The notes beneath the pieces were generated by a model. That model worked only from the letters and a program-made list of their open reading frames with translations. It did no database searches and had not been told where the DNA came from. The position numbers and the translations under genes were made by a program. Shown here one piece after another: positions 1,090-48,746 of a DNA stretch of 64,000 nucleotides. The stretch's first letter is position 1. Each line of letters opens with the position of its first letter. This stretch comes from Escherichia phage 121Q: the sequence record NC_025447.1; one strand, given 5' to 3'.

Positions 1090-1656
1090 ATGAACAATTT
1101 ACTACAAGTATTTAAAATTGAAGTTGCAGGGACGAACCTAGATAATATCCCATATTATATGTATGGTGATTATGATTCATCTTCCCCAACAACCGCACCG
1201 ACTGACCAGCAAACTATTGATAAGTCAATTGCACTTTTGCGTTACCTACAACTTTCTCGTTTGCTTTCAACTTATTCAGTACCAGTTTATAGCAATGTTG
1301 AATTTGCTACACCTGGAACTGCAAAAACTATCCCAACTGGTGCAACAATTACAGTTGGTTATATTAGTTATCAACCGTTTATTAACACACTAAGTGTTGC
1401 TGACCAAGCTGCACTAACTACTGAAGATATGAAAACTGCAAAAGCTGCTGAAATAATTCAAAAACTAATCAATGATTCATTGAAAGGTGACGGTACTAAT
1501 GCTATCGTAAATGAAGAAATAACTGTACAAAAAACCATTCAGAGAATCAAGAACGCACTTACTACAAGTACTGTTGATTTTATTGAATATGAGAACGTGT
1601 ATCTTAATGTTCCTTCAGTTACTGATGCATCAGTAGTATCTTACGTTAAATTATAA
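1090..1656 (+). CDS. hypothetical protein
   Basis: ORF with GGAG upstream of ATG at 1090 (track ORF starts 1066); no recognisable motif. Confidence 0.55.
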   Translation: MNNLLQVFKIEVAGTNLDNIPYYMYGDYDSSSPTTAPTDQQTIDKSIALLRYLQLSRLLSTYSVPVYSNVEFATPGTAKTIPTGATITVGYISYQPFINTLSVADQAALTTEDMKTAKAAEIIQKLINDSLKGDGTNAIVNEEITVQKTIQRIKNALTTSTVDFIEYENVYLNVPSVTDASVVSYVKL

Positions 1657-1679
1657 TTTTATAACATGGAGTTCTTGAC

Positions 1680-1874
1680 ATGACTGACAAAACATTTTAT
1701 GATCGTATTATTGAAGACAAGGGAGTTTTTGATAAGGTAGTTTATGACCTAGAACTTATGATCAAAGACGCACCAAACCCACGTGTGCGAACCCAAGCAG
1801 AATTTGCAAAAACTTATCTTGTTCAAGTTCAAGCAATCTGTGAAGCAATTAAAAAACACAATGATAGTGCTTGA
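1680..1874 (+). CDS. hypothetical small protein
   Basis: 64-aa ORF in same-strand array. Confidence 0.45.
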   Translation: MTDKTFYDRIIEDKGVFDKVVYDLELMIKDAPNPRVRTQAEFAKTYLVQVQAICEAIKKHNDSA

Positions 1875-1899
1875 CAGAACTAATGTTCTATCCTATAAT
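1871..1899 (+). promoter_or_regulatory. sigma70-type early promoter upstream of IF3-like gene
   Basis: TTGACA, 17-nt spacer, TATAAT. Confidence 0.6.
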
Positions 1900-1943
1900 T
1901 ACTATCGAACAAAACATTAAAATCATATTGGAGCTTTTATTAC

Positions 1944-3006
<1,063 letters not shown>

Positions 3007-3022
3007 AATATAGACTTAAAAA

Positions 3023-5183
<2,161 letters not shown>

Positions 5184-39941: not shown

Positions 39942-40116
39942 AACATTTGACGAGTGGTATCAAATGCATTACAATATAAATGCAGGTGATGTATACTTCT
40001 TTAAGTTGGAGTTGTTTTTATTGTTAAATGATCCCGAATCGTACTATAACAATATCATTTATTGTGATGATTTTAGTACATATTTTAGTATTGCAGTTAT
40101 GGATATAAAAAGATGA
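39883..40116 (+). CDS. small protein, possible divergent MTHEEW-family member
   Basis: Contains QPKTFDEWYQMHY; likely starts at in-frame GTG near 39931; start uncertain. Confidence 0.35.
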   Translation: MQYCYLKLWIFIKVNTVQPKTFDEWYQMHYNINAGDVYFFKLELFLLLNDPESYYNNIIYCDDFSTYFSIAVMDIKR

Positions 40117-40175
40117 CACATGAAGAATGGTTGGTACAAACTGAACACTTGGTTATAGCAAGTATGAAATTTTGA
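40113..40175 (+). pseudogene. truncated MTHEEW-family copy
   Basis: ATGACACATGAAGAATGG start identical to full-length paralogs but stop after 20 codons. Confidence 0.35.
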
Positions 40176-40476
40176 AATGAACAGTTGATGCACTTGGTAA
40201 GTAATAAAGCGTATTACGATGCATTCTTTGGGAAAAATGCTACAATTGAGGTTCATGTGTATTATGCTATTACATTTGGTGATTAATTTATGAAATATGA
40301 ACATTTAAAATACTATGCTGATAGAATAAATTATTATCCCTTTTATATAAGATTAGATGCATTAATATCAAAAAAAGTTGTATATAAACGTTCTCAAGCT
40401 GATCTAACCAATATAGCATTCATTCTTGCAGTACTGTCTAAAATGGGATAATATTAAATTAAGATGGATATTAAGA

Positions 40477-40653
40477 GATGACACATGAAGAATGGTTAGA
40501 TGAACTAAAATTCAAACATAATCCTTTTGGTTTTGGTATACGCCAAGGTCATTATGATGTGTTAAAAGATAAACAACTTTTCAAATCATTTGTACTTGAT
40601 GCGGATAGCAACCACTGGTTCATCTATGAGCTTGCAATTAGAGACAAAAAATA
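40477..40653 (+). CDS. MTHEEW-family small protein
   Basis: 58 aa MTHEEWLDEL...HWFIYELAIRDKK; below track cutoff. Confidence 0.5.
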
Positions 40654-40659
40654 GTAAGA

Positions 40660-40995
<336 letters not shown>

Positions 40996-40996
40996 A

Positions 40997-41179
40997 ATGA
41001 CACACGAAGAATGGATGTACAAACAGCATAAAGAACATGACTGCTTTGGGAATGGTATTCGTCAGGTACATTATGATATTCTCAAAGATATAAATTTATT
41101 CATAAAATATGTTTTGGATGAAAATAAACATTGGTTTATATATGAGATTGCATATAGAAACTCAAATAAACAAAAATAA
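40997..41179 (+). CDS. MTHEEW-family small protein
   Basis: MTHEEWMYKQ...HWFIYEIAYRN; paralog of 40477..40653. Confidence 0.5.
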   Translation: MTHEEWMYKQHKEHDCFGNGIRQVHYDILKDINLFIKYVLDENKHWFIYEIAYRNSNKQK

Positions 41180-41193
41180 ATAAGGAATATATT

Positions 41194-41412
41194 ATGGAAA
41201 CAACGTTATTTGAAGTTATTCAAGCATTAAAAACTGGTGATGACATTCAAGTATTGCTACATGGTTATCGTTTAAAAGGCACTGTGGTTTTAGTTAATGA
41301 CACAACGTTAGTTATTGCCGAAACAAATCCATATGATAGTAATCAAGTTGCTAATATCCATATTGATATTAAAAGCATTATTGGTGTAGGCGTAAATAAA
41401 AATCAAGAATAA
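41194..41412 (+). CDS. hypothetical small protein
   Basis: 72-aa ORF. Confidence 0.45.
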   Translation: METTLFEVIQALKTGDDIQVLLHGYRLKGTVVLVNDTTLVIAETNPYDSNQVANIHIDIKSIIGVGVNKNQE

Positions 41413-41490
41413 CAAATGTTTTTGAAAAAAACCAGAAAATGAATGATTTTTTTGGACAACTCAAAAATATATGATATAATAATTAGTACA

Positions 41491-41580
<90 letters not shown>

Positions 41581-41584
41581 ATAT

Positions 41585-41680
<96 letters not shown>

Positions 41681-41689
41681 CTAAAAACC

Positions 41690-41854
41690 ATGACGCATGA
41701 AGAATGGATGAATGATATTAATTTTAGATATTCGGGTATCGGTAGTTGGCGAAAATATCATTGGGAAATTATTTCAGACCCAGCAGAATACGATAAACTT
41801 ATAAACCATGAAGTATATCCGTGGTTCTTTATTGAAATAATGGTACGAATATGA
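41690..41854 (+). CDS. MTHEEW-family small protein
   Basis: MTHEEWMNDINFRYSGIGSW...; 54 aa. Confidence 0.5.
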   Translation: MTHEEWMNDINFRYSGIGSWRKYHWEIISDPAEYDKLINHEVYPWFFIEIMVRI

Positions 41855-42011
41855 CGCATGAAGAATGGATGAATGACATTAATTTTAGATATTCGGGTAT
41901 CGGTAAATGGCTAAAGTATCATTGGGAATTCATTTCAGAGCCACATATGTATGATAAACTTATCAACGATCCAGCATATGAAATGTACTTAATTGAACTA
42001 CTGGTACGAAT

Positions 42012-42015
<4 letters not shown>
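41851..42015 (+). CDS. MTHEEW-family small protein
   Basis: MTHEEWMNDINFRYSGIGKW...; near-duplicate of 41690 copy; ATGA overlap. Confidence 0.5.
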
Positions 42016-42177
<162 letters not shown>

Positions 42178-42185
42178 AAAAAAAG

Positions 42186-42595
<410 letters not shown>

Positions 42596-42599
<4 letters not shown>

Positions 42600-42630
42600 C
42601 TAAATAATTCAGTACTGAGGATATTAATAT
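42596..42630 (+). promoter_or_regulatory. degenerate copy of promoter cassette (copy 2)
   Basis: TTGACTAAATAATTCAGTACTGAGGATATTAATAT; -35 and spacer conserved, -10 degraded. Confidence 0.35.
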
Positions 42631-42656
42631 GTTTAAAGATGAACGTCCAGATTTGT

Positions 42657-42694
<38 letters not shown>

Positions 42695-42699
42695 GAATT

Positions 42700-43050
42700 C
42701 CACAATCAGACGTATATGGTGTAAGCTACGTCGATGCAATCCAGAACAAGATCTCTGGTACTCTAGGAAGTGGTGAATGTTAACCTAGACGGGTTTGATA
42801 ATTGGACGATAGGCAATTATTACTTGACTAGCAGGTTGAAACTAGAGGTGACAGTCCTTCACCAAACTGGAAAACCGGATGGACTTTTATTTAAAAGGGT
42901 AAGGCGTGGAAATATGTTTACAGAAGTTGCTTTTAGTAGCCTGTACGCCCCACGACAAGGTAGCCGAAAGGTAAGTTAAAACGGGTGGTTATAAAGCTGA
43001 ATTAACAGCGGCGTTTAAAAGCGTCACCATCCATTTTTTTAATTAAAGTT
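42700..43050 (+). ncRNA. candidate structured non-coding RNA downstream of early promoter
   Basis: About 350 nt between a consensus promoter and the next RBS with no convincing ORF, locally GC-richer, several hairpins including GGTGACAGTCCTTCACC and a GAAA-loop stem. Confidence 0.3.
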
Positions 43051-43056
43051 GGCGAT

Positions 43057-43809
<753 letters not shown>

Positions 43810-43826
43810 TTCACATGATATAGGGA

Positions 43827-44088
<262 letters not shown>

Positions 44089-44096
44089 GAATCTTC

Positions 44097-44498
44097 ATGA
44101 AAAAGAATGACTTGATCAAAATGCTCCAAGAGATTGACGGCAATCCAGAGATTGTTATTTGGAATGGCTATGTCGATGATTATATGAACATCGAAAAAGG
44201 CTTGACTAAAATCACACTAGTCAAAGAAACTGAACAGTTCCTTCTGAACGCATTAGAGCATGAATGGTGCGAACGTAACAAGACATTCGACATTCCAGAA
44301 GACCAACGAACTAAGATTGCAGAACGTGCTAAAGAACTTCATAAGAAGCGTGAATACGATTTCCAGAACCCATATGTTACTGAAGAAGAATTCAATCGCT
44401 GGTACGGAAAAAGAAAGTTGACAAAGTATGTTCTTTCACCTAAACTACGTGGTAAGACTTCTCTTGGTGTATTCAATGCATCTGACTTAGATTACTAA
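44097..44498 (+). CDS. hypothetical protein (paralog pair with 45138..45353)
   Basis: N-terminus MKKNDLIKMLQEIDGNPEIVIW resembles MKAKDLISILQKNPEADILIH. Confidence 0.55.
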   Translation: MKKNDLIKMLQEIDGNPEIVIWNGYVDDYMNIEKGLTKITLVKETEQFLLNALEHEWCERNKTFDIPEDQRTKIAERAKELHKKREYDFQNPYVTEEEFNRWYGKRKLTKYVLSPKLRGKTSLGVFNASDLDY

Positions 44499-44508
44499 GG
44501 AAAACAAA

Positions 44509-44829
44509 ATGATGTGGTATTCAAATGTACCGTGTGAACCTAAATATATTCAGATTTCACATAATGCACTGAAAGCGTTCTGTGATAATTGCAGTACTAA
44601 AGATTATCACTTCGAAGACTTCAGAACGTTGATTTATGACCATCACTGTCAGCCAGCAACCAAAGATGGTATGTTTGTAATTGAACAATTCTTTCATGGT
44701 AAGGTATTGCAAATTGTTGCTGATTATCTGAAAGCAATGGGATATATTATCAAAGATGATTATCTTGATTTAGAAGGTGAATGCATTGTTGATGGTTATG
44801 ATGGTGTACTGATGAATTGGACATGGTGA
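44509..44829 (+). CDS. hypothetical protein
   Basis: 106-aa ORF. Confidence 0.5.
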   Translation: MMWYSNVPCEPKYIQISHNALKAFCDNCSTKDYHFEDFRTLIYDHHCQPATKDGMFVIEQFFHGKVLQIVADYLKAMGYIIKDDYLDLEGECIVDGYDGVLMNWTW

Positions 44830-44833
44830 TGAA

Positions 44834-45136
44834 ATGATTGCAACAATGATGATTGTACTTATCCCAATAGTACTAGTAATTCTAGTGACTTCATATGGTG
44901 CAACCACAACTATTGAAGATCTAAAAACACATTACGCTATCGTCTTTAGTGAAGCACATGAAGACTTTGGTACAGTACTGACCGATAAGACTTATATTGC
45001 AACTAAATGTAAGTACTACCGATTCTGGGAACGTTCTGACAAATACCACTACAGAGATGAGAAAGGCGTGAATCAGTACTTAGACGTACTGGATGCATTC
45101 TTGAAACCTTACTATACAGTAACCGAGGTAAAATAA
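44834..45136 (+). CDS. hypothetical membrane-anchored protein
   Basis: N-terminal TM MIATMMIVLIPIVLVILV. Confidence 0.5.
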   Translation: MIATMMIVLIPIVLVILVTSYGATTTIEDLKTHYAIVFSEAHEDFGTVLTDKTYIATKCKYYRFWERSDKYHYRDEKGVNQYLDVLDAFLKPYYTVTEVK

Positions 45137-45137
45137 C

Positions 45138-45353
45138 GTGAAAGCTAAAGATTTGATTTCAATTTTACAGAAAAACCCAGAAGCAGATATTCTTATTCAT
45201 GCTTCGCCTTATGATGACTATGCGATTGGTAGTTGCGAAACTGCTCATTCATATCAAGCAGGGGACACCGCTGTTGAAGAGTCTGGTGAAGATTTTTCGG
45301 AATCATTTGATGAAGATGGAAAACTCTTAGTACCAGTCATCATTCTCTCATAA
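45138..45353 (+). CDS. hypothetical protein (paralog pair with 44097..44498)
   Basis: GTG start in track; N-terminal similarity to 44097 ORF. Confidence 0.45.
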   Translation: MKAKDLISILQKNPEADILIHASPYDDYAIGSCETAHSYQAGDTAVEESGEDFSESFDEDGKLLVPVIILS

Positions 45354-45360
45354 AAGAACG

Positions 45361-45543
<183 letters not shown>

Positions 45544-45562
45544 AGAGGTACTTCGAGTATGC

Positions 45563-45629
<67 letters not shown>

Positions 45630-45632
45630 TAA

Positions 45633-45661
45633 TTGACATAACTTTGAATGGAGTGTATTAT
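45633..45661 (+). promoter_or_regulatory. sigma70-type promoter
   Basis: TTGACA, 17-nt spacer, TATTAT. Confidence 0.5.
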
Positions 45662-45704
45662 GTTCCAAGAAGAAAACTGGGGTTTTTAACATAACGGGGA
45701 ATGT

Positions 45705-45837
<133 letters not shown>

Positions 45838-45838
45838 G

Positions 45839-45889
<51 letters not shown>

Positions 45890-45895
45890 TAATTA

Positions 45896-45968
45896 GCCGA
45901 CTTAGCTCAGTAGGTAGAGCGTTCCTCTTGTAAGGGAAATGTCACCAGTTCAATTCCGGTAGTCGGCA
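45896..45968 (+). tRNA. tRNA-Thr (anticodon UGU)
   Basis: Perfect acceptor GCCGACT/AGTCGGC, D-arm GCTCAGTAGGTAGAGC, anticodon loop CTTGTAA, T-loop TTCAATT; CCA not encoded. Confidence 0.65.
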
Positions 45969-45980
45969 CAAAATAAAGGT

Positions 45981-46421
<441 letters not shown>

Positions 46422-46429
<8 letters not shown>

Positions 46430-46787
46430 TCTAATAGTACGTATAATGCAAGATGTTTGTAATAACCTTTATACAGGCAATTTTGACGATCCGAACATAA
46501 AAATATTATGTTATGATGGTTTTACAATGGTACATCCAGCCTATTCAAATAATATCTACGTAGCATATACAGGTGAAAATCTATTGTATCAATTTGATAT
46601 ATATAGTACAATGACAAAGATAATTTTGGATGCATCTAAACCAGCAATCTTTATTGCTTCTCATGATTACCATTACACGGAAGAATCACTATTTCAGTAC
46701 TCAATGATTAATGACATTGGTGGGTTGACATTGGATGAGGTTAATGCTATACTAGCTGTCTCACGTTTGGTTAAAACCCACAATTAG
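46422..46787 (+). CDS. EE-x-FFQ-x-S motif family protein (member 17)
   Basis: EESLFQYSMINDIGGLTLDEVNAI. Confidence 0.6.
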
Positions 46788-46796
46788 GAGATTCAT

Positions 46797-46988
46797 ATGT
46801 TCTGGAATTTATTATGCTTGTTTGGTCGCACATTAGTACTTGCAATTATTCATACACCTGGCATTCGTAATTATGTTTCTTATGAATTTAAGAAAGATTA
46901 TCACAACGGTACTGAAGTACGTGCCACTAAAATGTGCAAAGACTTCAATGTATCCGTTCCTCCATTTAAGAAGTACGAGGATGAATAA
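46797..46988 (+). CDS. hypothetical small protein
   Basis: 63-aa ORF with GGAG RBS, hydrophobic N-terminus. Confidence 0.45.
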   Translation: MFWNLLCLFGRTLVLAIIHTPGIRNYVSYEFKKDYHNGTEVRATKMCKDFNVSVPPFKKYEDE

Positions 46989-47272
46989 TGGAATTCATTG
47001 TTGCACCTGATGAACTTAAAACATTCACGTTCAGAGATAATAATAATTATCCTTATACAAATCATTCATTGAATTCATTACATGTTATTTCAATCATTGC
47101 ATCTGAATATAGAGATAATCCATGTATTGATTTTAAAACCACTGATGGTGAATATACATGGGTGATCCCAAAAGATAAATATAGTTATCAAGGGGCAGTA
47201 GATATTCGTGACTCGATTCTAAAACAAATCGAAGATGGAAATACTCATCCTAAACTAAAAACTCAGTACTGA
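46988..47272 (+). CDS. hypothetical protein
   Basis: 94-aa ORF. Confidence 0.5.
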   Translation: MEFIVAPDELKTFTFRDNNNYPYTNHSLNSLHVISIIASEYRDNPCIDFKTTDGEYTWVIPKDKYSYQGAVDIRDSILKQIEDGNTHPKLKTQY

Positions 47273-47340: not shown

Positions 47341-47505
47341 CGTATAATGATATTACCCTCAAATTCATTATATTCGTTACCCTCTAACAGTATCTTTTTA
47401 TTCCTCTTGGATGCTGTAATTTAGAAGTTGACATTTTAACTTCTTATATGTTATACTTAAGGCTGATTCAATGAATCGGCCTTTTTTCTTATATAGGTGA
47501 ATGCA

Positions 47506-47925
47506 ATGAGTTATTTGTTTACTTTAATTGATAAGTATGTTGACATTGTATACCGTCAAGTTTGTAGTGATACGTTTGAAACAAAAAACCCAATTAGAGA
47601 TGGAATTTTTGATGTTGCCGTTGGATCATTTTTGAATGGGTACACCGAGTCATTATACAACAGTAATAATATTTTTATTTCAGTTCAATCAAGGCATACA
47701 TCAGACTATGCTGTTAGCATTGATATTTGGGAAAATAATATAGAAATAGACATAACGGAACATACTAACATTTGTGTTGATGATACATTTAATCAATTAA
47801 CTGAAGAAATGTACTTGCAGTTGAATTTTGTACATGATCTTACAAATATCAGTTATGATACATTAAGGAAAATATGTTTTCTTAGTGGGGTGATTCGTAG
47901 TAATATGAGTAAGTATGGGAAGTGA
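47506..47925 (+). CDS. EE-x-FFQ-x-S motif family protein (member 18, divergent)
   Basis: TEEMYLQLNFVHDLTNISYDTLRKI; first ATG at 47506 (track start 47497 is GTG). Confidence 0.5.
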   Translation: MSYLFTLIDKYVDIVYRQVCSDTFETKNPIRDGIFDVAVGSFLNGYTESLYNSNNIFISVQSRHTSDYAVSIDIWENNIEIDITEHTNICVDDTFNQLTEEMYLQLNFVHDLTNISYDTLRKICFLSGVIRSNMSKYGK

Positions 47926-48343
47926 AATGTTAAAAATTCCACCTAAGTCGTTAACACATCTTATTGAATGTGGTGTAATATTTTCCGAAGGTGATACCTC
48001 ATCATACACATCGGTCGATGAACCTTATAATTTTTCATACCAATCTTATAAAAATAATTCTAAAATTTCTTGTAGAGAGGCTGAAAACATATTAATAGAT
48101 GTTTCGTTACATAATGTTCCGAAATTTTACATTGATATCTTTGGTGATTCTTTGACAATTCGAACATATGATTATTTTATTAACAAAGACCTCTTGAATC
48201 TTCCAATTGAACATGATAGTATAGATTCAGAACTTTTCTTTCAACTATCAACTGTTTATGATTTACAGGGTTTAACTGTTGAACAGTTGAATGGTATTTT
48301 TGAGATTTCACGAAACATACGAAGCAGGAACACAAATGTCTAA
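47915..48343 (+). CDS. EE-x-FFQ-x-S motif family protein (member 19)
   Basis: DSELFFQLSTVYDLQGLTVEQLNGI. Confidence 0.6.
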   Translation: MGSEMLKIPPKSLTHLIECGVIFSEGDTSSYTSVDEPYNFSYQSYKNNSKISCREAENILIDVSLHNVPKFYIDIFGDSLTIRTYDYFINKDLLNLPIEHDSIDSELFFQLSTVYDLQGLTVEQLNGIFEISRNIRSRNTNV

Positions 48344-48746
48344 TATTTTAAATGAAAAAACAGTTGATGTTGCTATTGGCGTTCTTAACACCGCAACTTC
48401 ATTTCAGAAGAAACACAGTGTTGTATACTTTGGTGAAGATTGTTGGCTGAACTATACTAATAATTCGTTTATAATTCGTGTAGAGGCTGATGATATTGGA
48501 TTAACCGTTCAGGTAGGATATACCAAAACTGGTAAACAAATCACTGTCATTGTCGATAAACTTACGTCTTCTTTTTATGATAGTATAAATGATTGTGAAC
48601 ACTATAGTTCAACATTTTATGATACCGAAGAAGAACATTTTATGGATAGTACTGTTAAAGAGTTAGCTATTCCATATAATCTAATGAAAGCCGTGAGTGA
48701 TTTAATTTTAAAATATAAAAAAATAGGAGTTACTAATGCAATTTAA
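48335..48746 (+). CDS. EE-x-FFQ-x-S motif family protein (member 20, divergent)
   Basis: EEEHFMDSTVKEL; start placed at ATG 48335 (MSNILNEK) overlapping upstream stop; track ORF 48291. Confidence 0.5.

What the first reader, a model, noticed from the sequence alone, without database searches (positions are those of the whole stretch)
44097..45353. Small paralog pair sharing an N-terminal MK-x-x-DLI-x-x-LQ block
ORFs 44097..44498 and 45138..45353 begin MKKNDLIKMLQEIDGNPEIVIW and MKAKDLISILQKNPEADILIH respectively, then diverge; another instance of local duplication and divergence in this accessory region.
Basis: seen in the sequence. Interest (0 to 1): 0.3.

Follow-up and report, generated by a model that had tools for sequence, protein, structure and literature searches.

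The report
Two distant small phage protein relatives
Two small genes of unknown function in a jumbo E. coli phage really do share an inherited N-terminal segment, but they are old, distant members of a widespread family of tiny phage proteins, not a recent local duplication, so the finding is real and fairly ordinary.

Summary
Both ORFs exist as described: A, 44097..44498, 133 aa; B, 45138..45353, 71 aa, GTG start. The window is an Asteriusvirus-like jumbo coliphage, closest to EJP2.

The shared N-terminal block is real. Pairwise evidence alone is borderline: BLASTP finds nothing, Smith-Waterman scores 47 (1/5000 shuffles), and the pair ranks 8th of 9180 ORF pairs in the window.

Family-level evidence settles it:
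- Profile-profile hhalign gives 92.5% probability, P=4.8e-7, over A 1-43 and B 1-40.
- A metagenomic protein, P0084, carries a B-type N-terminus on an A-type body and matches both profiles at database scale.

The "local duplication" reading is only partly supported:
- There is no DNA-level similarity, and only 7 of 15 identical residues share a codon.
- Each gene belongs to its own old family. A relatives occur in Vibrio and Pseudaeromonas phages. B is phrog_29979, a family of about 70-aa proteins in many large phages.
- A is present, absent or truncated independently of B among Asteriusviruses.

AlphaFold models give the same order of core elements (helix plus three strands), with a helical insert of about 60 aa in A.

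No Pfam, NCBIfam or PDB relative was found, and function is unknown. The likely role is a non-virion accessory binding protein. Interest is low.

The parts
44097..44498 (+). ORF A, 133 aa, ATG start. Member of a conserved family of 118-143-aa phage proteins with no Pfam or PHROG assignment.
   Evidence: ORF list and sequence. 35 homologues down to 38% identity, with invariant M1 K3 L6 I7 L10 G15 N16 P17 N23 G24 D28 L41 R118 Y133. AF2 model: pLDDT 77.8, H3-11 E18-21 E31-42 H46-61 H68-84 H96-103 E107-116, disordered conserved tail.
44097..44225 (+). Shared N-terminal module in A (residues 1-43): helix, NPE turn, strand, DDY, second strand.
   Evidence: hhalign A1 vs A5 aligns A 1-43 with B 1-40, 92.5% probability, P=4.8e-7. 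N-terminal alignment.
44509..45136 (+). Two unrelated ORFs (44509..44829, 106 aa, phrog_20372; 44834..45136, 100 aa) inserted between A and B relative to most Asteriusviruses. Not family members.
   Evidence: Alignment with UE-S1 shows a clean ~640-bp insertion. The same arrangement occurs in EJP2 only. PHROG and Pfam scans.
45138..45353 (+). ORF B, 71 aa, GTG start (ATG in UE-S1), acidic (pI 4.1). Member of phrog_29979, function unknown.
   Evidence: ORF list. phrog_29979 E=3.5e-51 over its full length. pI. AF2 model: pLDDT 91.1, pTM 0.79, H3-12 E17-20 E36-39 E67-70. About 25 full-length relatives of 63-76 aa at the 50% cluster level.
45138..45257 (+). Shared N-terminal module in B (residues 1-40): MKAKDLISILQKNPEADILIH...DDY.
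   Evidence: hhalign. The module is also seen alone at the N-terminus of otherwise unrelated 45-180-aa proteins, including RaK2 ORF017.
43425..43453 (+). Sigma-70-like promoter consensus (TTGACT-17-TATAAT, with TG) upstream of tRNA-Ser/Met/Asn and the ORF run 43831..45353. Possible start of the transcription unit (inferred).
   Evidence: Pattern scan gives 11/12 matches, but the total number of promoter-like sites equals that in shuffles. tRNAs.
45383..45429 (+). Stem-loop (9-bp stem enclosing a 5-bp stem) followed by a U-run, 30 nt after the stop codon of B. Possible terminator (inferred).
   Evidence: RNA fold gives -22.2 kcal/mol, but z is only -1.8. The simple terminator scan did not list it, and there is no Rfam match.

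Best explanation
A and B are two anciently diverged members of one superfamily of small, non-virion phage proteins. The superfamily is defined by an N-terminal amphipathic helix, an N-P-E turn and a beta-strand (consensus MKAKDLIkiLqkNPEAEVvi), usually followed by an acidic/aromatic DD[YW] turn and a second strand.

Shown:
- The N-terminal ~40 residues are homologous.
- Each gene belongs to its own old family.
- The slot they occupy, between a conserved 85-aa gene and tRNA-Thr in the tRNA-interspersed region of Asteriusviruses, gains and loses small genes, including further members of the same superfamily in EJP2 and UB.

Inferred from AlphaFold models only: both fold into the same mini-domain, a helix packed on a three-stranded sheet. 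In B a short acidic loop joins strand 2 to strand 3. In A a ~60-residue three-helix insert sits there, and A also has a conserved basic, disordered C-terminal tail (KLRGKTS...D-x-Y-COOH).

Inferred function, low confidence: the conserved helix/sheet is a stable scaffold. The variable loop, insert or tail binds a host or phage partner, and the proteins are made in the infected cell as dispensable accessory (host-takeover or counter-defence type) factors. A and B would then have different targets. No catalytic motif or nucleic-acid-binding fold was detected.
For: Homology of the N-terminal module:
- Reciprocal best HMM hits within the window.
- hhalign 92.5% probability, P=4.8e-7.
- Bridging protein P0084, which in cultured phages hits both the Asteriusvirus A genes and the RaK2 ORF017 N-terminus.

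Old divergence with protein-level constraint:
- Codon comparison and absence of a DNA repeat.

Separate families and distributions:
-.

Gene flux in the slot:
- UE-S1 has A and B adjacent.
- PBECO4 has B only.
- E9.1 keeps a remnant of A.
- The window and EJP2 carry the two-ORF insertion.
- Extra superfamily members are EJP02_380 in EJP2 and AXC36642 in UB.

Same order of secondary-structure elements:
- AF2 models.
- With the helical insert removed from A, hhalign extends to the last strand, pairing GKRKLTKYVLSPK with DGKLLVPVIILS.

Non-virion status:
- phAPEC6 gp089c and gp090c are not in the published table of virion proteins, which jumps from gp078c to gp149c (PMC7247149).
- The Kae01 homologue ENKO_434 lacks the LC-MS/MS note that its neighbours carry.

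Accessory status and context:
- A is absent from many genus members.
- Elsewhere the relatives sit in runs of small same-strand genes near rIIB, dCMP deaminase, NT5C, NADAR and thymidine kinase.
- The B fold resembles many uncharacterised 50-80-aa phage proteins in BFVD, for example Bacillus phage G gp237 at TM 0.72.
Against: - Sequence significance covers only the first ~40 residues. The C-terminal strand adds no score (38.0 vs 39.6) and scores P=0.12 on its own.
- I could not superpose the two models, so the shared-fold claim rests on the order of secondary-structure elements. The N-terminal third of the A model is only moderately confident (pLDDT 55-74).
- Many database proteins share only the first 22-36 residues with B and have unrelated C-termini. 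This fits module shuffling as well as it fits divergence.
- Nothing tested here speaks directly to function. There is no Pfam, NCBIfam or PDB sequence hit, and no PDB fold hit.
- Early expression is inferred from a consensus promoter match in a region where such matches are no more frequent than in shuffles.
- Absence from virion proteomes is weak evidence for proteins this small.
Confidence: 0.6

Rival explanations
1. Module shuffling. Only the N-terminal helix-strand module (~25-40 aa) is homologous, and it has been joined by recombination to unrelated C-terminal parts. A and B would share a portable N-terminal cassette, not a whole domain, and P0084 would be a recombinant chimera.
For: Many proteins of 45-180 aa match the B profile only over residues 1-22 to 1-36 and then differ completely, including RaK2 ORF017/P0045. 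hhalign significance stops at about residue 43, and the C-terminal part alone scores P=0.12. P0084 has a B-type N-terminus on an A-type body. Two database proteins, P0058 and P0083, carry the module twice in tandem.
Against: AF2 places the N-terminal helix of B at pLDDT ~96 in a model with pTM 0.79, where strands 36-39 and 67-70 are also predicted; this is read as the helix being part of one compact domain, so the helix alone is unlikely to be an autonomous unit. A shows the same helix-strand-strand...strand order. No nucleotide-level recombination footprint joins A and B.
Confidence: 0.25
2. One reading: a recent local tandem duplication within this accessory region, followed by rapid divergence of everything except the N-terminus.
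For: A and B are direct neighbours in 13 or more Asteriusviruses. The region holds other obvious tandem families, such as the MTHEEWM ORFs. The superfamily can duplicate in tandem, as in P0058 and P0083.
Against: There is no DNA similarity and synonymous sites are scrambled. The A family keeps 31-48% identity to proteins of unrelated Vibrio and Pseudaeromonas phages and T4-like contigs, far more than its similarity to B. B has its own wide family. A and B are ~12 kb apart in Munch-group phages. A is present or absent independently of B.
Confidence: 0.07
3. The shared block is a detachable N-terminal targeting signal. The analogy is the ~10-aa capsid-targeting sequence shared by the otherwise hypervariable internal proteins of T4-type phages (from my own knowledge; I also recall that T4 ipI lies near the tRNA genes). 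Unrelated cargo proteins would be packaged into the head and injected.
For: The pattern fits: a conserved extreme N-terminus, hypervariable remainder, small proteins, a hyperplastic locus next to tRNA genes, and an acidic B protein.
Against: The helix is predicted with the highest confidence of the B model, alongside confidently predicted strands in a pTM 0.79 model, which I read as part of the folded core. Conservation extends through strand 1 and the DDY turn, about 30-40 aa, longer than a CTS. The motif ...NPE-A does not match the [L/I]-x-E site of the T4 prohead protease (from memory, not tested). Neither protein is among the virion proteins of phAPEC6 (PMC7247149), nor is the homologue flagged in Kae01.
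Confidence: 0.05
4. Chance or compositional resemblance. Both proteins start with the common 'MK' and an amphipathic helix, so the likeness has no evolutionary meaning.
For: BLASTP finds nothing. A score of 47 is matched by one unrelated ORF pair in the window. Lys at codon 2 is common in highly expressed genes (general knowledge).
Against: hhalign gives P=4.8e-7. The two ORFs are reciprocal best HMM hits. P0084 is significant against both profiles at a database size of 1.84e9. Conserved N-P-E and DD[YW] positions line up in both families.
Confidence: 0.03

Closest known systems
PHROG phrog_29979 (unknown function)
   Same: B matches the profile end to end (E=3.5e-51), and 25 of 29 aligned relatives also match. 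The proteins are ~70 aa and come from jumbo and T4-like phages.
   Different: The family has no described function or structure. A does not match it, or any other PHROG, at E<=1.
PHROG phrog_18200 / Klebsiella phage RaK2 ORF017 (186-197 aa depending on start codon; profile length 191; unknown function)
   Same: It has the same N-terminal module (MKAKELAELLMKNPEQEVYLEETHFDDW). B hits profile positions 1-29 (E=0.028), and 11 of 29 B relatives hit it.
   Different: Its ~150-aa C-terminal part has no counterpart in A or B, so A and B are not members.
The A-type family: phAPEC6 gp090c, Munch, KLEP7 gp71, Vibrio phage NVP1084O_147, metagenomic P0001-P0035 and P0084
   Same: ORF A carries every invariant residue of the family and is 94% identical to phAPEC6 gp090c.
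   Different: The family is unnamed. It has no Pfam, PHROG or NCBIfam model and no characterised member.
T4-type internal proteins with a shared capsid-targeting sequence (analogy recalled from memory)
   Same: These are also sets of small, divergent proteins in a hyperplastic locus that keep only a short conserved N-terminus.
   Different: Here the conserved part is longer and is predicted to be part of the fold. No protease site was recognised, and there is no evidence of virion presence. There is no sequence similarity.

Membership tests
phrog_29979 (B-type ~70-aa phage proteins) | Full-length match to the family profile | tested here: met
   B: E=3.5e-51, residues 1-71 on profile positions 1-71/71. 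A: no PHROG hit at E<=1.
phrog_29979 (B-type ~70-aa phage proteins) | Length of 63-76 aa with the pattern helix, NPEAEV strand, KG turn and terminal hydrophobic strand | tested here: met
   Alignment A5 of 29 sequences. AF2 model H3-12 E17-20 E36-39 E67-70, pLDDT 91.
A-type 118-143-aa family (unnamed) | Invariant M1 K3 L6 I7 L10 G15 N16 P17 N23 G24 D28 L41 R118 and C-terminal Y | tested here: met
   ORF A is the reference row of alignment A1, and all invariant columns are present. 35 homologues at E<=0.01.
Superfamily sharing the MKAKDLI-NPEAEV N-terminal module | Significant profile-profile match of the N-terminal ~40 residues between the A and B families | tested here: met
   hhalign gives 92.5% probability, P=4.8e-7, 39 columns. 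Bridging protein P0084.
Superfamily sharing the MKAKDLI-NPEAEV N-terminal module | A common fold across the whole core (helix plus three strands), with A carrying an insertion | tested here: inconclusive
   The order of AF2 secondary-structure elements is the same. hhalign extends to the last strand once the insert is removed, but without any score gain, and that segment alone gives P=0.12. Model coordinates could not be superposed.
Recent tandem paralogs (local duplication) | Residual nucleotide similarity or shared codons between the copies | tested here: not met
   No direct repeat links the two 5' ends. 7 of 15 identical residues share a codon, and third-position identity is 13/27.
Recent tandem paralogs (local duplication) | The copies are each other's closest relatives and are confined to the lineage | tested here: not met
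   A has 31-48% identical full-length relatives in Vibrio and Pseudaeromonas phages. B has its own family in Hallingskeid, Munch and metagenomes.
T4-type internal proteins / capsid-targeting sequence | Protein present in virions | tested here: not met
   phAPEC6 gp089c and gp090c are not in the published virion protein table (PMC7247149). Kae01 ENKO_434 carries no LC-MS/MS note. This is a weak negative for small proteins.
T4-type internal proteins / capsid-targeting sequence | N-terminal signal removed by the prohead protease at a recognisable site | not testable with these tools
   The cleavage specificity of the Asteriusvirus prohead protease is not known to me. AF2 gives the helix the highest confidence in the model (pLDDT ~96, pTM 0.79), which I read as a core element and which argues against removal.
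Any Pfam / NCBIfam family or solved structure | Match above the curated threshold, or a significant fold match | tested here: not met

The most novel reading that the evidence does not exclude
The MKAKDLI-NPEAEV helix/sheet mini-domain is a common display scaffold of a large, fast-diversifying family of small effector proteins in big lytic phages (Asteriusvirus, Alcyoneusvirus, T4-like and others). Specificity would come from the hypervariable loop, the helical insert or the tail. A and B in this window would be two differently targeted inhibitors of host functions or defence systems, traded between phages through hyperplastic tRNA-region slots.
Probability: 0.15. Interest if true: 0.55.

Novelty: new member of a known kind. 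Interest (0 to 1): 0.2.

Why it matters
The practical value is modest.
- It links an unassigned 133-aa family (phAPEC6 gp090c-like) to phrog_29979, phrog_18200 and other small-protein families through one N-terminal module. Annotators could use this to group dozens of ORFan clusters in jumbo and T4-like phages.
- It documents a well-defined hyperplastic slot in Asteriusviruses, between the conserved 85-aa gene and tRNA-Thr, where such genes are inserted, replaced and eroded.
- If the scaffold-plus-variable-loop idea holds, the family would be a reasonable place to look for new host-takeover or anti-defence binders. Nothing here demonstrates that.

Tried and rejected
- BLASTP of A against B gave no alignment.
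- Pfam, PHROG and NCBIfam scans for function returned only unknown-function PHROGs and sub-threshold noise.
- PDB sequence searches with both family profiles found nothing meaningful. The cAMP-kinase regulatory subunit at E=0.07 and a zinc-finger protein at E=1.7 were dismissed.
- BFVD returned only uncharacterised small phage proteins.
- The afdb50 library was unavailable.
- A third family member in the window was considered and rejected. ORF 24760..24990 matches weakly (E=0.076) at its C-terminus only.
- A Rosetta-stone idea was tested: that RaK2 ORF017 is a fusion of a B-like gene with the ~199-aa gene that follows B-like genes in Hallingskeid and in the P0090 contig. It was rejected, with no similarity at E=12.
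- Nucleotide-level conservation (a regulatory or recombination element) as the cause of the shared block was rejected by the codon comparison and the repeat search.
- Rfam was searched for a structured RNA after B, with no match.
- Literature searches found nothing on these genes: phAPEC6, fEgEco12, Asteriusvirus transcriptomics, and the peptide strings themselves.
Repeated with 44 aa, it found 62 hits, all unnamed small proteins with no fusions to known domains.

Full report
**Where the window comes from**

The window comes from an Asteriusvirus-like jumbo coliphage. The 1.7-kb region around the finding is 96% identical to Escherichia phage EJP2 and 90-94% identical to about 30 other PBECO4/phAPEC6-like phages. 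The finding lies in a run of small same-strand ORFs interspersed with tRNA genes.

**The observation**

Both ORFs exist exactly as described.
- A is 44097..44498, ATG start, 133 aa.
- B is 45138..45353, GTG start, 71 aa. A GAGG sits about 10 nt upstream, and the UE-S1 orthologue starts with ATG.
- A regex for the motif finds only these two places in all six frames of the window.

**Is the similarity more than chance?**

Pairwise evidence is borderline.
- BLASTP reports nothing at E<=100.
- Smith-Waterman scores 47 over A 1-29 / B 1-28, and 1 of 5000 shuffles reaches that score.
- Among 9180 comparisons of the first 40 residues of 136 non-nested window ORFs, the pair ranks 8th. Only pairs from the obvious MTHEEWM family rank higher. 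One unrelated pair also reaches 47. Pairwise statistics alone would not survive multiple testing.

Family-level evidence resolves it.
- A has 35 database homologues down to 38% identity. Their N-terminus is the most conserved part: M1 K3 L6 I7 L10 G15 N16 P17 N23 G24 D28 are invariant.
- B first yielded only close relatives. tblastn then added the Munch/7t3/Kae01 group at 46% identity, and weak N-terminal hits in RaK2-like phages and Erwinia phage Hallingskeid.
- N-terminal HMMs of each family pick the other ORF as the best non-self hit among 550 window ORFs (E=0.029 and 0.0017).
- hhalign of the A family against the thin B profile gives P=7.3e-5.
- An exhaustive HMM search of 1.84 billion representatives with the B profile found 50 proteins at E<=1e-3. 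About 25 are full-length relatives of 63-76 aa. The rest share only the N-terminal MKAKDLIKILQKNPEAEV block.
- With a 29-sequence B alignment, hhalign against the A family rises to 92.5% probability, P=4.8e-7, covering A 1-43 and B 1-40.

One of the hits, P0084, bridges the two families.
- It is 118 aa and comes from a T4-like contig, three called genes (about 1.6 kb) downstream of rIIB.
- It has a B-type N-terminus (MKAKDLIKILQKNPEQEV) on an A-type body (...NGYVDDWMNI...FDRLGDIEY).
- BLASTP gives 6e-11 to A and 3e-9 to B.
- In cultured phages it hits both the Asteriusvirus A genes and the RaK2 ORF017 N-terminus.

The N-terminal similarity is therefore inherited, not accidental.

**Is it a local duplication?**

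The evidence says no, at least not a recent one.
- There is no DNA repeat between the two 5' ends.
- Of 15 identical aligned residues only 7 use the same codon. Nucleotide identity is 47/81 and third-position identity 13/27.
- A-type proteins occur at 31-48% identity in Pseudaeromonas phage KLEP7, Vibrio phage 1.084.O and CMSTMSU; no B-like neighbour accompanies them in KLEP7 or the Vibrio phage.
- B-type proteins form phrog_29979 and are found in quite different phages.
- In the Munch group A and B are ~12 kb apart.

Within Asteriusviruses, the slot between a conserved 85-aa gene (the 43831..44088 orthologue) and B is hyperplastic:
- It is empty in PBECO4.
- It holds A alone in UE-S1, phAPEC6, G17 and others, with A and B 12 nt apart.
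- It holds A plus a ~640-bp two-ORF insertion in this window and in EJP2.
- In E9.1 a different 66-aa gene has overwritten the 5' two-thirds of A, leaving ...FEYWYGKKKLTKYVISPKLRGKTSLGVFNAADLNY.
- Further superfamily members sit a few kb upstream in EJP2 (EJP02_380, 69 aa) and UB (AXC36642, 63 aa, identical to P0055). They are absent from the window.

The adjacency of A and B is better explained by both genes living in a gene-flux hot spot than by in-situ duplication. An ancient tandem duplication cannot be excluded.

**Structure**

- The B model is confident: pLDDT 91.1, pTM 0.79, with H3-12, E17-20, E36-39, E67-70.
- The A model is moderate: pLDDT 77.8, pTM 0.60, with H3-11, E18-21, E31-42, H46-61, H68-84, H96-103, E107-116 and a disordered tail. 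That tail is nevertheless conserved, with K116, R118, G119 and the terminal Y133 invariant or nearly so.
- The order of core elements is the same in both. A has three extra helices between strands 2 and 3.
- When those helices are removed from the A alignment, hhalign extends to the last strand. The score does not rise, and that segment alone gives P=0.12.
- The shared-fold reading is therefore suggestive, not shown. I could not superpose the coordinates.

**Function**

Nothing known matches.
- Pfam, NCBIfam and PDB sequence searches are empty.
- BFVD returns only uncharacterised 50-80-aa phage proteins. The best are a UB protein and Bacillus phage G gp237 at TM 0.72.
- A profile search of the 5.8-billion-protein set found 62 small unnamed proteins and no fusion to a known domain.

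Indirect clues:
- B is acidic (pI 4.1), though the family ranges up to pI 8.9.
- The phAPEC6 orthologues gp089c and gp090c are not among the 62 virion proteins (PMC7247149). The Kae01 orthologue lacks the LC-MS/MS flag of its neighbours.
- A is dispensable in nature.
- Relatives lie among small genes near rIIB, dCMP deaminase, thymidine kinase, NT5C and NADAR.
- A strong sigma-70-like consensus at 43425..43453 precedes the tRNA-Ser/Met/Asn cluster and the ORF run. A stem-loop with a U-run follows B at 45383..45429. Both are only pattern matches.

My best guess, at low confidence, is a cytoplasmic accessory binding protein. A conserved helix/sheet scaffold would present a variable loop (B), or a variable insert and tail (A), to a host or phage partner.

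**Rivals**

- Module shuffling, with only the N-terminal cassette homologous, remains a serious alternative (0.25).
- Recent local duplication (0.07), a detachable targeting signal like the T4 internal-protein CTS (0.05) and chance (0.03) are disfavoured. The reasons are given in their entries.

**Verdict**

The genes are ordinary small phage ORFans of catalogued but uncharacterised kinds. The new elements are the remote link between the A-type family and phrog_29979/phrog_18200, and the description of the hyperplastic slot. Interest is low (0.2).

Noticed in passing
window 40478..40654, 40979..41179, 41690..41854, 41851..42015, 42012..42176 (+): A family of five small ORFs shares the MTHEEWM block. 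Three are 54-aa ORFs in direct tandem with overlapping stop and start codons. They give the top N-terminal pair scores in the window (up to 194). Unlike A and B, this looks like a true local tandem expansion.
   Followed up: partly
window 45986..46429, 46422..46787, 47497..47925, 47915..48343, 48291..48746 (+): A run of 121-151-aa ORFs downstream of tRNA-Thr appears to share a C-terminal motif (...F.Q.S...DL.GLT.E....I...S+...). This suggests another paralogous family.
   Followed up: no
window 44509..45136 (+): A ~640-bp insertion carries two ORFs between A and B, relative to UE-S1 and most Asteriusviruses. It is shared only with EJP2. The first ORF is phrog_20372. The second begins with a run of hydrophobic residues (MIATMMIVLIPIVLVILV) and gives a sub-threshold Pfam Acb1 (anti-CBASS) hit, E=0.021 and 15 bits against a cutoff of 27.
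   Followed up: partly
window 45383..45429 (+): A nested stem-loop (9-bp outer stem TACTGAATC/GATTCAGTA enclosing GGGAG...TTCCC) followed by CUUUUU lies 30 nt after the stop of B. It looks like a terminator, or loosely like an acceptor/T-arm minihelix. The fold z-score is only -1.8, and there is no Rfam match.
   Followed up: partly
window 40682..40754 (+): ARAGORN calls a tRNA-Gly(TCC) here. The Rfam tRNA model at gathering threshold, run over 40000..47000, reported the other five tRNAs but not this one.
   Followed up: no
window 43464..43555 (+): A tRNA-Ser with the unusual anticodon ACT (ARAGORN), confirmed as a tRNA by Rfam at 49.9 bits. It heads the Ser-Met-Asn cluster behind the 43425..43453 promoter-like site.
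   Followed up: no
L017 (Escherichia phage vB_EcoM_E9.1) 1129..1488: A 66-aa basic ORF (MSKFINRKKRKKRSKEEIL...) has replaced the 5' two-thirds of the A gene. It leaves a 41-codon annotated remnant that still encodes the conserved A C-terminus. This is a clear example of gene overwriting in this slot.
   Followed up: yes
L001 (EJP2) 3062..3271; L011 (UB) 3001..3192: Additional members of the same small-protein superfamily (69 aa and 63 aa, both with the MKA[KR].L...NPEAEV start) lie 1.4-2.3 kb upstream of A/B in these relatives. The window has unrelated ORFs at the corresponding place.
   Followed up: yes
L006 (Hallingskeid) 1501..2720; L015 4001..5192: A B-like 73-aa gene is followed by a ~199-aa gene and then a dCMP deaminase, both in Erwinia phage Hallingskeid and in an unrelated 78-kb metagenomic contig. 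This is a conserved three-gene arrangement of unknown meaning.
   Followed up: partly
P0058, P0083 (database proteins): Two metagenomic proteins carry the N-terminal module twice in tandem (MKVEELIELLKREDPKAEV...MKVKELIELLKRENPESEV). They are either real internal duplications or fused calls of adjacent genes.
   Followed up: no
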